Shown here one piece after another: positions 47,301-50,300 of a DNA stretch of 64,000 bases. The DNA lies in NCBI RefSeq assembly GCF_013167455.1, contig NZ_CP038328.1; one strand, 5' to 3'. The number at the start of each line of letters is the position of its first letter. Position 1 is the first letter of the stretch. This DNA is from Escherichia coli O157:H7. GTDB lineage: Bacteria > Pseudomonadota > Gammaproteobacteria > Enterobacterales > Enterobacteriaceae. A program made the position numbers.

Positions 47301-50300
47301 GATAGCGGGCTGCGGTTTCAACCTGCCTGATATCCGCAATCCGCTTTTCCGAGAACCAGAACTCAAACTGTACCGTCGGGTCATAAACGGCAAGATGCGG
47401 CGTGGCGGTTATCTGAAAATAGCCCGGCGTCAGCTCAATCCGCGACGGTGCTGCCGGTGCGGCAATCCGGAAGGTGGTGGTGGCAGGTTCACCCTGCTGG
47501 CCATAGCTGTTTATCGCCCGCACCGTCAGGGTGTATTCCCCGAGCGGCAGGCCGCTGAAACGGTGCTCCGTGTCTGCGGTGATGGCGGTGGTCACCAGTC
47601 TGGCATCCGTTCCCTTACCACTGGTCAGGCGCAGACTGAAGCGCACGCCCTTCACCACCCGCGGCGTGTCCCATTTAGCCTGCGCCAGATACTGGCCGTC
47701 AGCTGCACTCACCTCCACCGTCAGGTGCTGTACTGCCGGTGGGATGACGCTGTTCAGGGAACCTGACTGCGGCTCAAAGCGGGCACCGTTATCCACGATG
47801 GCTTCTTTTTCCGGTACGTGCTGCACCGCCGTGATGGCAAAGGTGCCGTCCGTGTTTTCCCGGACGGAGACACAGCGGAACAGGCGACGGCGCAGTGACG
47901 GCAGGGAGAGTCCCCACACCCCGTATGTCTCCACACCATCAGGCAGGGTACTGACCTGTATCCGGTCCGGCGCGGGGTGTGCGGTGATGTCCACACTCAC
48001 CGGCTTACCGCTGCCGTTAATCAGGTTCACCGTGGCGGCACCGGTCTCCGGCAGTGTCACCTCACGGTCCAGCGTCAGGGTGCGGCTGGCGGCATCGATG
48101 GACAGGACACGTCCGCCGGTCATGGTCCCGGCATAGTCGTTATCACAGATTTCAATAATGTCACCGGGTGTGTGACGCAGCCCCTGTGACCCGAGCGTGA
48201 AATCCACCGTCTGCGTTTCCAGCAGTCCGGTCTTTATCACCCACAGCCCGGCACGGTGGGCCTGACCGCGACTGGTGCAGCCGAACGCATCCATCTTCAG
48301 CAGGTTGCGTCCGTAGCGCAGTATGGCTTCCGGGTCTTCCACCAGTTCCGTGGAGGTCTGCCAGCCGTTCTGCGGGTCGGTGTAATTCACCTCCACCGCC
48401 GTGTGGCGGTCCTTCAGGGCGCTGAAGCTGTAGCGAAACCCCACGCCGTTATCATCCACCACCACATCACTGCTGGTGTAGGCCACACCACATCTGACGG
48501 ACGGTCCTGCACAAACGTCAGCGTCTGCCCGTTCCATACCGGCATACAGCGCATCGCCGAGCAGAAATCACTGAGAACGTCCCACGCCTTACGCTGTTGT
48601 GACAGGTACGCATTGAAAGTCATCCGCGGCTCTGTGCCCCCGAAACCATCCGGGACCGTCTGGTCGCAGTACTGCGCAATGGCATACAGCGCCCACTTGT
48701 CCACATCCGCCGCCCCCAGGCGTTTTCCCATTCCGTAGCGCGGGTGGGTCAGCATGTCCCACAGGCACCAGGCAGGGTTGTTGCTGTATGCCGGTTTCAG
48801 GCTGCCGTCCCAGATGCCGCTGTACGTGCGTTTTTCCGGGTCATAGTTTGACGGTACCTGGATGATGCGACCGCGGATATGGTAGTTCACCGTCATCTGC
48901 TGACCGCCAAACTGCTCCGCATCCACCTGCAGCCCCACAATCGCCGTGTTCGGGTAGCACTGTTTCACATCGATGATTTCGGTGTATGACGACCAGAGCG
49001 TCTTATTCTGCAGCTGGTCCGAGGTGCTGTCCGCTGTCTCCCGGACCATCCGGATGTTAAAGGGCCGCTCAGGCAGATTATCCAGAATCACCGACGCCAG
49101 AAACTGCGAGGTGGTCTTGCCGTTAATGGTGACATCCTTTTCCGTCACCCAGTTACCGTTACGCTGCAACTGAATCAGCAGTCGGACAGAAGAGTGATTA
49201 CGGTCGCCCTTTGAGGTGGTCTCCAACAGTGACTGCACCCCGAAGGTGACCCGCAGGCGGTCAATGTTCGCGGACGTAATGGTGCGCGTCACCGGTTTTG
49301 CCTTCGTCACTTCCACGCCCAGTCCGGTTTCAGCTCCGGAGGACTCAAAGCCTTCCGGTGGTGTCTGCTCCTGCTCCCCGGCACGCCAGACCGCGGTCAC
49401 ACCGTGTATCACGGGATTGCCGTCCGTGTCCGTCAGTGGGGTTTTGTTCACCAGAATACTCTGCAGTCCCTTCACCGGACCTTCTATCGGTCCCTCACCA
49501 ATCGCATCAATCACACTCATCATCTGCGTGGATTTGAGATTATCCTTCGCCTCACGAGGCGTGTGTGCCTTACCGCCACCTTTTCCCATACAGCCTTCCC
49601 CTGAATAAATTAACCGCCACTTGCCATTCCGTACAGAAGTCGGATATCCTTCGCCCGAAAAGCATGAAACACATTTCTGCCATGCTAAAGAGAAACCCCG
49701 GTATCAGCAGATACCGGGGTTTTCTTTCATGCCCACCGATAATCCTGTTGGTTAAAACCGGTAATGGCATAAAAATTCTGAATATCTTCACATTTTCACA
49801 CACTGACTGTGGCGCTTATAATTTCGCTGCGTTAGTGTTTTTTTGCCCGAGTAACAAAAACAACTCCTTAACATTGATCTTCATTTGTCTGTCCCCGCAG
49901 CTCCGCGATCACTGCGGGATTTTTTTATGTTTTATCCCTGTCGCCCGACAACCACGACCGTTCCGCCCCCGCCTTCATCACGGGTGCTGATGTCCTGGGA
50001 TATACGGCGGGAGCCAACCAGCATTTCCCCGTAAGGCACCGGCATCGGGTTCCCCTGGGCAATCATGTTATCCAGCGAGGAAAAGTACGTGTTCTGTCTG
50101 CCGTTATCCGTTGCGCGGTAATCCGGTGTTTTTGCCTTCGGGGCCAGCATCTGGGCCACACCGCCCAGAATCATGCTGGCTCCAAGTGAAAACAGCATCG
50201 TGGTGGCAGAAAAACCACCGGCTGCCAGGGCTGAACCCCATAACGCCATTGATGCCCCGGCAGTGAAGAAAGAGCCCACGATGGCTGCCGCCCCCAGCAC

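What the first reader, a model, noticed from the sequence alone, without database searches (positions are those of the whole stretch)
49590..49931. Promoter-terminator small-RNA candidate embedded between tail genes I and J
Lambda-type I and J are normally almost contiguous; here they are separated by 342 bp with no credible ORF. On the plus strand (antisense to the late operon) there is a near-consensus sigma70 promoter (TTCACA-16 bp-TATAAT, 49795-49822) followed ~70 nt later by a strong intrinsic terminator (GC stem 49894-49918 plus T-run). The predicted ~100-nt transcript carries a CA-rich stretch (aacaaaaacaac) of the kind bound by GU-rich seed regions of core sRNAs such as GcvB, so it could act as a prophage-encoded sRNA sponge (anti-sRNA), a class reported in enterohaemorrhagic E. 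coli prophages (AgvB-type); I cannot confirm identity from memory. A second perfect 12-bp hairpin with a T-tract (49694-49728) suggests a further unit or a bidirectional terminator.
Basis: partly seen in the sequence, partly recalled or inferred. Interest (0 to 1): 0.8.

Follow-up and report, generated by a model that had tools for sequence, protein, structure and literature searches.

The report
Known prophage small RNA PasB
The promoter-terminator unit between tail genes I and J is real, but it is the gene for PasB, a prophage small RNA already detected experimentally in pathogenic E. coli, and nothing supports the idea that it is a GcvB sponge.

Summary
The 342-bp I-J spacer carries, antisense to the tail genes, the only 11/12 sigma-70 promoter match in the 64-kb window. 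About 70 nt downstream lies an intrinsic terminator (stem 49894-49918, T-run 49920-49926).

The unit is already known. Window 49844-49926 is 82/83 identical to PasB of EPEC E2348/69. PasB is an 83-nt RNA that is lost without Hfq, was confirmed by Northern blot and has 37 RIL-seq partners. The single difference is at the published PasB/PasB-2 polymorphic position 27.

The unit is also homologous (74% identity, E 3e-22) to EcOnc22/23/24 of EHEC Sakai, which sit in the same slot on the same strand and were detected by Hfq-CRAC, Northern blot and RNase E-CLASH.

It is not AgvB-type. It lies at a different locus, shares no sequence with AgvB, lacks the CACAACA motif, and pairs with GcvB no better than shuffled sequence.

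Findings I did not see in the papers read:
- PasB and EcOnc22/23/24 belong to one family that is confined to the I-J slot.
- The family occurs as one to four tandem units.
- The RNA body is highly variable, but the terminator is nearly invariant.
- A CRP-like dyad, TCTGA-N6-TCACA, is invariant and always lies 24 nt before the -10 hexamer.

The function of the RNA remains unknown.

The parts
49844..49926 (+). PasB sRNA as annotated in EPEC (83 nt). The window copy carries A instead of C at position 27 (49870).
   Evidence: 82/83 identical to NC_011601 1466343-1466261, and the complement of the PasB Northern probe is exact at 49899-49921.
49829..49843 (+). Predicted 5' leader, if transcription starts 7 nt after the -10 hexamer (GCGUUAGUGUUUUUU). 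A start here would give a 98-nt primary transcript.
   Evidence: Position relative to TATAAT. The 5' GCGTTA is nearly invariant in 60 unique modules. The start site itself is inferred, not shown.
49817..49822 (+). -10 hexamer TATAAT.
   Evidence: A -10-like hexamer lies at this fixed position in 56 of 60 unique modules.
49795..49800 (+). -35-like hexamer TTCACA. It is specific to this allele and not conserved across the family.
   Evidence: alignments.
49774..49795 (+). Conserved dyad TCTGA-N6-TCACA (cores at 49777-49781 and 49788-49792) with an AT-rich flank. It is a candidate CRP-type activator site.
   Evidence: The left half-site is invariant in 60/60 unique modules although it was not part of the search anchor. 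The N6 spacer varies, and the dyad always lies 24 nt before the -10. The core motif alone is not rare.
49853..49864 (+). A-rich tract AACAAAAACAAC, which is four A-R-N triplets. It is a candidate site for the distal face of Hfq.
   Evidence: Read directly from the sequence. Every allele has at least three ARN triplets here although the sequence differs. The motif is as defined in PMC4104026.
49875..49893 (+). Single-stranded stretch just 5' of the terminator, which is the proposed seed region. The family-conserved T.ATCTTC lies at 49875-49882.
   Evidence: Unpaired in the predicted fold, conserved block, and seed proposed by Zhu et al. 2026.
49894..49926 (+). Intrinsic terminator and Hfq-binding module: a 7-bp GC stem, an 11-nt loop and U7.
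   Evidence: The stem is identical in the ten alleles aligned; it could not vary in the anchored sets, and one array unit carries a different terminator stem.
49694..49728 (.). Perfect 12-bp hairpin with T-rich tracts on both strands. It is probably a late-strand terminator or insulator upstream of J.
   Evidence: Hairpins in the equivalent position with a U-run on the late strand occur in Sakai Sp11/14/15, Sp8 and lambda.
49932..50612 (-). Tail assembly gene I. [quoted passage not shown]
48414..49589 (-). 5' part of tail tip gene J, which is split by a frameshift in this window.

Best explanation
The spacer holds a moron, that is, a self-contained transcription unit inserted between tail genes I and J and pointing against the late operon. 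The unit encodes the Hfq-dependent small RNA PasB; the copy here has A at position 27.

Shown in homologues:
- An RNA of about 83-85 nt accumulates in uninduced lysogens.
- It is lost or destabilised without Hfq.
- It crosslinks to Hfq and RNase E and forms chimeras with many mRNAs.

Inferred here:
- Transcription starts near 49829 from the TATAAT at 49817-49822.
- An activator probably helps, binding the invariant TCTGA-N6-TCACA dyad. CRP is the best guess.
- Transcription ends at the hairpin 49894-49918 plus U7.
- The first roughly 15 nt are either trimmed or the mapped 5' end is approximate.
- The U-tail and the A-R-N tract hold Hfq.
- The single-stranded stretch 5' of the terminator pairs with trans-encoded mRNAs.
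- Because that stretch differs strongly between alleles, different alleles probably have different targets.
For: Identity:
- 82/83 identity to PasB, with an exact Northern probe site.
- Homology to the EcOnc22/23/24 locus, 74% over 163 nt, E 3e-22.
- The EcOnc22/23/24 Northern probe and the sRNA halves of the CLASH reads map to the plus-strand body of the Sakai I-J spacer.

Expression and Hfq dependence of homologues:
- Tree 2014 Table S2 reports about 85 nt, destabilised in the hfq deletion.
- PasB shows log2 fold change -6.8 and -2.4 in the hfq deletion and has 37 RIL-seq partners.

Moron status:
- Lambda and Sp8 have only 60 nt between I and J.
- 118 of 124 copies in IMG/VR loci lie between I and J; most of the other six sit at contig ends where one flank is missing.
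- The same slot holds sodC in the same orientation in L079 and L080.

Promoter architecture:
-.
- PasB is higher in overnight LB than in DMEM, whereas Spot 42 shows the opposite pattern. This is compatible with CRP control.

RNA features:
- The terminator is the only consensus structure.
- The body is predicted unpaired.
Against: - No transcript data exist for this window's strain.
- The annotated PasB 5' end (49844) lies 22 nt after the -10, not the expected 7. The start site or a processing step is therefore unresolved.
- The dyad centre falls at about -44.5, not the canonical -41.5 or -61.5 of CRP promoters.
- The dyad core with one mismatch is not rare in the window: 3 found against 2 expected.
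- No target of PasB has been validated.
- The few CLASH hybrids for EcOnc22-24 are low count.
- Conserved blocks could partly reflect recent common descent rather than selection.
Confidence: 0.85

Rival explanations
1. Anti-sRNA sponge: the CA-rich tract mimics GcvB targets and sequesters GcvB, as AgvB does.
For: The tract aacaaaaacaac is C/A-rich and single-stranded or weakly paired. It also has the A-R-N repeat pattern that Tree 2014 found in AgvB and AsxR.
Against: - Best pairing with GcvB R1 is -10.4 kcal/mol, z -0.08, and 43% of shuffles do as well. The AgvB control gives -16.8, z -2.8.
- No CACAACA motif and no similarity to AgvB or AsxR.
- No Rfam AgvB or AsxR hit at E up to 1.
- The tract varies among alleles (AAGAAUAAU, AAAAAUAAC).
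- In the part of the EPEC RIL-seq table I could read, GcvB-SroC has about 1000 chimeras and no GcvB-PasB pair is listed. I read only the first of 40 parts of that table, within the activating-condition sheet.
Confidence: 0.04
2. Cis-antisense regulator: the RNA pairs perfectly with the I-J intergenic part of the late mRNA, either of its own prophage or of a superinfecting relative. This triggers cleavage and lowers J expression, giving exclusion or dampening as STnc6030 does in Salmonella phage BTP1. It could act alongside a trans function.
For: - Complete complementarity by construction.
- The unit is confined to this one slot. That fits a local role, and it would tolerate any sequence drift, as seen in the variable body.
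- There is a precedent for an antisense RNA in structural genes giving superinfection exclusion.
Against: - The complementary stretch is non-coding and ends about 240 nt upstream of the J start, so an effect on J is not obvious.
- PasB has 37 trans partners on Hfq.
- The conserved scaffold with Hfq features is typical of trans-acting sRNAs.
Confidence: 0.12
3. There is no RNA function. The spacer is only a terminator or insulator region, and the promoter match is fortuitous or drives a by-product.
For: - Two strong hairpins with T-tracts sit in the spacer.
- Lambda also has a hairpin in its short spacer.
Against: - The promoter, the 5' end and the terminator are conserved as a set in 60 unique modules and are duplicated as whole units in arrays.
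- The RNA is abundant on Hfq in two pathotypes.
Confidence: 0.03
4. The spacer is protein-coding. Candidates are the 141-aa plus-strand ORF (49565-49990), the 66-77-aa minus-strand ORF annotated in phage ASU11, and a short late-strand peptide starting MKINV.
For: The ORFs exist in this allele, and one is annotated as a hypothetical protein in ASU11.
Against: - 26 of 28 distinct spacers have stops in every plus-strand frame.
- Near-identical spacers differ by 1-nt and 47-nt indels inside the minus-strand ORF.
- The MKINV start codon is ACG in the common B allele, and the peptide length is 22, 31 or 39 aa in other alleles (reading of the alignments).
Confidence: 0.01

Closest known systems
PasB (pathogenicity-associated sRNA B) of EPEC E2348/69 prophage PP6 (Pearl Mizrahi et al. 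2021, PMC8550237; distribution in Zhu, Shabalina and Storz 2026, bioRxiv 10.64898/2026.05.13.724894)
   Same: - 82/83 nt identical.
- Same I-J slot, strand, terminator and upstream promoter region (77/80 identical upstream).
- The Northern probe site is exact.
   Different: - One substitution at position 27 (A for C), which is the position that distinguishes PasB from PasB-2.
- The J-proximal half of the spacer is a different sequence in the window. It is the type found in prophages named PPompW in the phage collection.
EcOnc22/23/24 of EHEC O157:H7 Sakai prophages Sp15, Sp14 and Sp11 (Tree et al. 2014, PMC4104026; Waters et al. 2017, PMC5286369)
   Same: - Same slot and strand.
- Same upstream dyad at the same distance from the -10.
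- Same 5' GC(G/A)UUA, A-rich tract, UCC, AAUCUUC block and terminator stem.
- 74% identity, E 3e-22.
   Different: - The body differs, with a 6-nt indel and several substitutions in the putative pairing region, so the targets may differ.
- The -10 is AATAAT and the -35 region is unrelated.
- The papers I read do not connect these names with PasB.
AgvB / AsxR / EcOnc03 anti-sRNAs
   Same: Prophage-encoded, Hfq-bound, with a terminator plus an A-R-N-rich region, and with a conserved scaffold and a variable pairing region.
   Different: - They lie at the PR' moron site, not between I and J.
- They are 51-60 nt long.
- There is no sequence similarity.
- This RNA has no GcvB or FnrS mimic sequence.
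HnrS (EcOnc10/11/12), a prophage late-region sRNA that represses hha (bioRxiv 10.1101/2025.11.27.690950)
   Same: A multicopy Hfq sRNA carried in the late region of lambdoid prophages. It shares the heptamer AAUCUUC.
   Different: - It lies between the lysis genes and terminase, and the sequence is otherwise unrelated.
- The window allele does not pair with the hha ribosome-binding site above background: z +0.84, against z -2.4 for HnrS.
STnc6030 of Salmonella prophage BTP1
   Same: Expressed in lysogens and antisense to the late structural region.
   Different: It is about 786 nt long, overlaps coding sequence, is unrelated in sequence, and has a shown role in superinfection exclusion.

Membership tests
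PasB sRNA | Sequence of the 83-nt RNA of E2348/69 | tested here: met
   82/83 identical. The only difference is at position 27.
PasB sRNA | Located between tail assembly gene I and tail tip gene J of a lambdoid prophage, on the opposite strand | tested here: met
PasB sRNA | [quoted passage not shown] | tested here: met
PasB sRNA | Expressed as an RNA of about 83 nt whose level depends on Hfq | not testable with these tools
   Shown for E2348/69 only.
EcOnc22/23/24 | Homology to the Sakai I-J spacer transcript | tested here: met
   74% over 163 nt, E 3e-22. The probe and the CLASH read parts map to the homologous stretch.
EcOnc22/23/24 | Hfq-CRAC peak and Northern band | not testable with these tools
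   Shown in Sakai only.
AgvB/AsxR anti-sRNA family | Location at the moron site downstream of PR' and Q | tested here: not met
   The unit lies between I and J.
AgvB/AsxR anti-sRNA family | Conserved 3' domain of about 42 nt; Rfam RF02702/RF02703 | tested here: not met
   No Rfam hit at E up to 1. Only 7-8-mer matches in blastn-short.
AgvB/AsxR anti-sRNA family | 5' region mimics the GcvB R1 target (CACAACA) and pairs with R1 | tested here: not met
   Motif absent. Pairing z -0.08 against -2.8 for AgvB.
Hfq-binding sRNA module (terminator hairpin preceded by a U-rich stretch and followed by at least 6 U) | Sequence features of the module | tested here: met
   UCUUCAUUUGUCUGU, then the hairpin, then U7.
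Moron (extra transcription unit in a phage operon) | Own promoter and terminator, and absent between the same two genes in related phages | tested here: met
   Lambda and Sp8 have a 60-nt spacer without the unit. sodC occupies the same slot in L079 and L080.
CRP-dependent promoter | TGTGA-N6-TCACA site | tested here: inconclusive
   9/10 core match, half-sites invariant and spacer variable. However, the motif with one mismatch is not rare in the window.
CRP-dependent promoter | Site centred at -41.5 or -61.5 from the start site | tested here: not met
   The predicted centre is -44.5 from the inferred start at 49829. The start site is not mapped.

The most novel reading that the evidence does not exclude
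PasB and EcOnc22/23/24 are alleles of one modular sRNA cassette that lives only in the I-J slot of Escherichia lambdoid phages.

- The cassette keeps a fixed scaffold: an activator dyad 24 nt before the -10, a 5' GCGUUA, an A-R-N tract, and a largely conserved terminator.
- The pairing region is swapped or diversified faster than silent sites of the neighbouring genes.
- Cassettes can be stacked into arrays of up to four.

If so, lysogens would carry a carbon-status-controlled (CRP-type) set of sRNAs with different targets, possibly also acting in cis on tail mRNA.
Probability: 0.35. Interest if true: 0.5.

Novelty: already known. Interest (0 to 1): 0.27.

Why it matters
As a discovery it does not matter much, because the RNA was found in EHEC in 2014 and named PasB in EPEC in 2021.

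It matters for annotation. The unit is present in 1812 of 5426 complete E. coli genomes, with up to 11 copies per genome. It had no RNA annotation in any record I inspected and has no Rfam family, so scans will keep rediscovering it.

The comparative results give testable leads for an RNA whose function is still unknown:
- one family behind two names;
- an invariant upstream dyad that points to a regulator;
- a variable pairing region;
- tandem arrays.

Tried and rejected
- Rfam, both at gathering scores on the whole window and at E up to 1 on 48500-51000, gave no family in the spacer.
- GcvB R1 pairing of five alleles against shuffles was not above background. An untrimmed duplexfold of the full sequences gave meaningless long duplexes and was discarded.
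- Pairing with the hha ribosome-binding site, prompted by the AAUCUUC heptamer shared with HnrS, gave no support for the window allele. Allele D is borderline, z -1.7.
- RNAalifold on ten alleles found only the terminator and no covariation. The single-sequence fold has z -1.2.
- svsR (PMC12803456) lies at the 3' end of cI and is unrelated.
- A LexA box reading of the dyad (CTG-N10-CAT) was rejected because the essential CAG is missing. A sigma-E reading (TCTGA as -10) was rejected because there is no -35 and the predicted RNA size is wrong. An OmpR-like reading was rejected because its second half-site is not conserved. All three rest on my recall of the consensus sequences.
- I saw no convincing minus-strand promoter in the spacer. 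The scan found none, and I also checked by eye.
- Sakai Sp9 carries only a truncated remnant of the unit, so it says nothing about expression of this allele.
- A phrase search for GcvB-PasB chimeras in the RIL-seq tables failed for technical reasons. The positive control phrase also gave nothing.
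Full report
**1. Observation**

The window has tail assembly gene I at 49932-50612 and the start of J at 49589, both on the minus strand. An identical stretch in E. coli E2865 and in phage ASU11 is annotated as tail assembly protein I and tail tip protein J. The 342 bp between them (49590-49931) contain, on the plus strand, TTCACA-16-TATAAT at 49795-49822. 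This is the only match of at least 11/12 to the sigma-70 consensus on either strand of the whole 64-kb window. Block shuffles give about one per 128 kb, or roughly 0.003 per spacer strand.

The terminator is as described: stem CCCGCAG/CTGCGGG at 49894-49918 and T7 at 49920-49926, -12.6 kcal/mol, z -2.4. The second hairpin has a perfect 12-bp stem at 49694-49721, with T-rich tracts following it on both strands. It folds at -27 to -32 kcal/mol, z -5 to -7.

Lambda itself and Sakai prophage Sp8 have only 60 nt between I and J. The spacer here is therefore an insertion relative to those phages.

No ORF is credible. The 141-aa plus-strand frame of this allele is interrupted in 26 of 28 distinct spacers from related loci. 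The minus-strand ORF annotated as hypothetical in ASU11 is hit by 1-nt and 47-nt indels in near-identical spacers.

**2. Identity**

Rfam has nothing here, and the stretch carries no feature in the RefSeq records listed. The literature nevertheless identifies it twice.

(a) Tree et al. 2014 (PMC4104026) list EcOnc22, EcOnc23 and EcOnc24 in Sakai prophages Sp15, Sp14 and Sp11. They report a Northern band of about 85 nt that is destabilised without Hfq.
- Their Northern probe is complementary to the plus strand of the Sakai I-J spacer, immediately 5' of the terminator stem.
- In the RNase E-CLASH table of Waters et al. (PMC5286369), the EcOnc22-24 halves of hybrid reads read GCCTGAAAAATAACTCCATAACGTTAATCTTCA. 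This is the exact plus-strand sequence of that spacer.
- Published coordinates refer to the older Sakai record and are shifted by about 133-140 bp from the current one. I checked this with the AgvB probe and the yjbJ hybrid.
- The window spacer aligns to the Sakai spacer over the promoter-to-terminator module at 74% identity, E 3e-22.

(b) Pearl Mizrahi et al. 2021 (PMC8550237, Table S6) define PasB in EPEC E2348/69.
- It lies at NC_011601 1466343-1466261 on the minus strand, is 83 nt long, and sits in prophage PP6. The Northern probe is AATCCCGCAGTGATCGCGGAGCT.
- That locus lies between I and J.
- The 83 nt are identical to window 49844-49926 except at position 27 (window 49870, A instead of C). 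The probe complement is exact at 49899-49921, and 77 of the 80 upstream bases are identical.
- Zhu, Shabalina and Storz (2026 preprint) name position 27 as the difference between PasB and PasB-2. They also say the E2348/69 form is not the commonest. In my loci the window form outnumbers it 43 to 12.
- PasB falls 110-fold and 5-fold in an hfq mutant, has 37 RIL-seq partners, and is more abundant in overnight static LB than in DMEM.

None of the papers I read links PasB with EcOnc22/23/24.

**3. Not AgvB-type, and no support for a GcvB sponge**

- AgvB, AsxR and EcOnc03 lie at the moron site downstream of PR' and are 51-60 nt long.
- The spacer shares only 7-8-mers with them and lacks CACAACA.
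- The best 16-nt pairing with GcvB R1 is -10.4 kcal/mol for the window allele (z -0.08). Other alleles range from z -1.1 to +1.0. The AgvB control reaches -16.8 kcal/mol (z -2.8).
- The CA-rich tract is not conserved in sequence among alleles. What is conserved is a run of at least three A-R-N triplets, which is the Hfq distal-face motif of Tree et al..
- The part of the EPEC RIL-seq table that I could read lists GcvB-SroC with about 1000 chimeras and no GcvB-PasB pair. I read only the first of 40 parts, within the activating-condition sheet.
- Pairing with the hha ribosome-binding site, the target of the prophage sRNA HnrS that shares AAUCUUC, is also not above background for this allele.

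**4. Family anatomy from related loci**

Distribution:
- The full 342 bp occur only in phages of the type named PPompW in the phage collection. The conserved part is window 49766-49931, found in 147 phage records that include many Stx phages.
- That part is present in 1812 of 5426 complete E. coli genomes, at 5537 places, with up to 11 per genome.
- Among 100,044 species representatives, an exact-anchor scan found it only in E. albertii and in two contigs that I take to be contaminant or misbinned, judging only from their titles and small size.
- Of 124 copies in 120 IMG/VR loci, 118 lie between I and J; most of the other six sit at contig ends where one flank is missing.

Conserved scaffold and variable body:
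- In 60 unique modules, the pentamer TCTGA was invariant although it was not part of the search anchor. Together with TCACA it forms a dyad with a variable 6-nt spacer.
- A -10-like hexamer lies exactly 24 nt after the dyad in 56 of 60 modules.
- The predicted 5' end, GCGTTA, is nearly invariant.
- The RNA body is much more variable than its surroundings. Mean pairwise identity is 70% (minimum 52%). This compares with 94% for 300 nt of I and J, and with 86-89% at their third codon positions. Gaps count against the non-coding alignment, so this is an indication rather than a rate estimate.
- Only the terminator is a consensus structure, and its stem did not vary in the ten alleles aligned, so there is no covariation. 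One unit of the four-unit arrays carries a different terminator stem.

Arrays and other cargo in the slot:
- Four loci carry four tandem units, each with a dyad, a -10, a variable body and a terminator. Two loci carry two units.
- In two loci, a sodC gene in the same antisense orientation replaces the promoter half of the unit.

**5. How it most likely works**

Shown, in homologues: an RNA of about 83-85 nt accumulates in uninduced lysogens, depends on Hfq, and is ligated to many mRNAs on Hfq and RNase E.

Inferred from sequence:
- A start near 49829 (98-nt primary transcript) from a promoter whose conserved elements are the -10 and the upstream dyad rather than a -35.
- The dyad matches the CRP core in 9 of 10 positions. 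The higher level in LB than in glucose-rich DMEM, opposite to Spot 42, fits CRP activation.
- Against this, the predicted centre is -44.5, not -41.5, and the motif with one mismatch is not rare in the window. I hold the CRP reading at about 0.35.
- The annotated 5' end at 49844 coincides with the position where the CLASH read parts begin in Sakai. This suggests trimming after the U-run, or an approximate end.
- The stretch just 5' of the terminator (49875-49893) is the likely seed, as Zhu et al. also propose.

A cis-antisense effect on the late I-J transcript is possible and untested.

**6. The second hairpin**

In the Sakai-type spacers, the hairpin at the same relative position has its U-run on the late strand only. 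Lambda and Sp8 also carry a late-strand hairpin plus U-run just upstream of J. I therefore read 49694-49728 as the local version of a late-strand terminator or insulator that happens to be bidirectional here, not as a second sRNA gene. A weak plus-strand promoter match (9/12) at 49621-49650 means a second RNA cannot be excluded.

**7. Verdict**

This is a real feature, correctly spotted and correctly called a small-RNA gene, but it is already known (PasB; also homologous to EcOnc22/23/24). The proposed AgvB-like sponge function is unsupported.

The added value of this check is the unification of the two names, the confinement to the I-J slot, the arrays, the variable body, and the invariant upstream dyad.

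Noticed in passing
L099, L100, L127, L183 (e.g. L100 minus strand, units starting at 2526, 2744, 2976 and 3198 of the reverse complement); L124 and L130: The I-J spacer can hold tandem arrays of four (or two) complete sRNA units. Each has the TCTGA-N6-TCACA dyad, a -10, a different body and a terminator. The repeats include fragments of the 3' end of gene I.
   Followed up: partly
L079 and L080, I-J spacers of 851 and 848 bp: A Cu,Zn superoxide dismutase (sodC-like) gene with its own terminator sits in the I-J slot, antisense to the tail genes. It replaces the promoter half of the sRNA unit, whose 3' half and terminator remain. The protein was identified by eye only.
   Followed up: partly
window 46117-48537 and 48414-49589 (minus strand): Tail tip gene J is split into two overlapping ORFs of 391 and 806 aa. 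The same two-piece arrangement is annotated in Sakai Sp15 and apparently Sp14, while the otherwise identical E2865 prophage has an intact J. The prophage may therefore be defective.
   Followed up: partly
L095 846-905 (lambda) and L096 25464-25523 (Sakai Sp8): The 60-nt I-J spacer of lambda and Sp8 contains a GC hairpin followed by a U-run on the late strand just before the J ribosome-binding site. Hairpins in the equivalent position occur in the long spacers too. Their role in a Q-antiterminated operon is unexplained.
   Followed up: partly
L097 2586-2772 (Sakai Sp9): A truncated remnant of the unit (dyad, -10 and the 5' half of the RNA) abuts a shortened tail gene. The I gene, apparently K, and the 3' half of the sRNA seem to have been deleted together.
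   Followed up: no
window 49823-49890, minus strand: A short late-strand ORF starting MKINV (22 aa here, 31-39 aa in other alleles) overlaps the sRNA body. It starts at the conserved ATGAAGAT and is preceded by GGGA of the terminator arm. The common B allele has ACG instead of ATG, so it is probably not a gene.
   Followed up: partly
window 6507-6709 (-), 18834-18927 (+), 29826-29942 (-): Rfam gathering-score hits elsewhere in the window: the sRNA STnc180, the trp operon leader, and an ALIL pseudoknot. The trp leader is consistent with the match to phages that the collection names PPompW.
   Followed up: no
Waters 2017 supplementary file 9 (CLASH hybrids); L092 1678: EcOnc22/23 form low-count hybrids with the coding region of yjbJ, through CCAUAACGUU pairing with AACGUUAUGG. 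The window allele differs at two of these positions, so this pairing would not carry over.
   Followed up: partly
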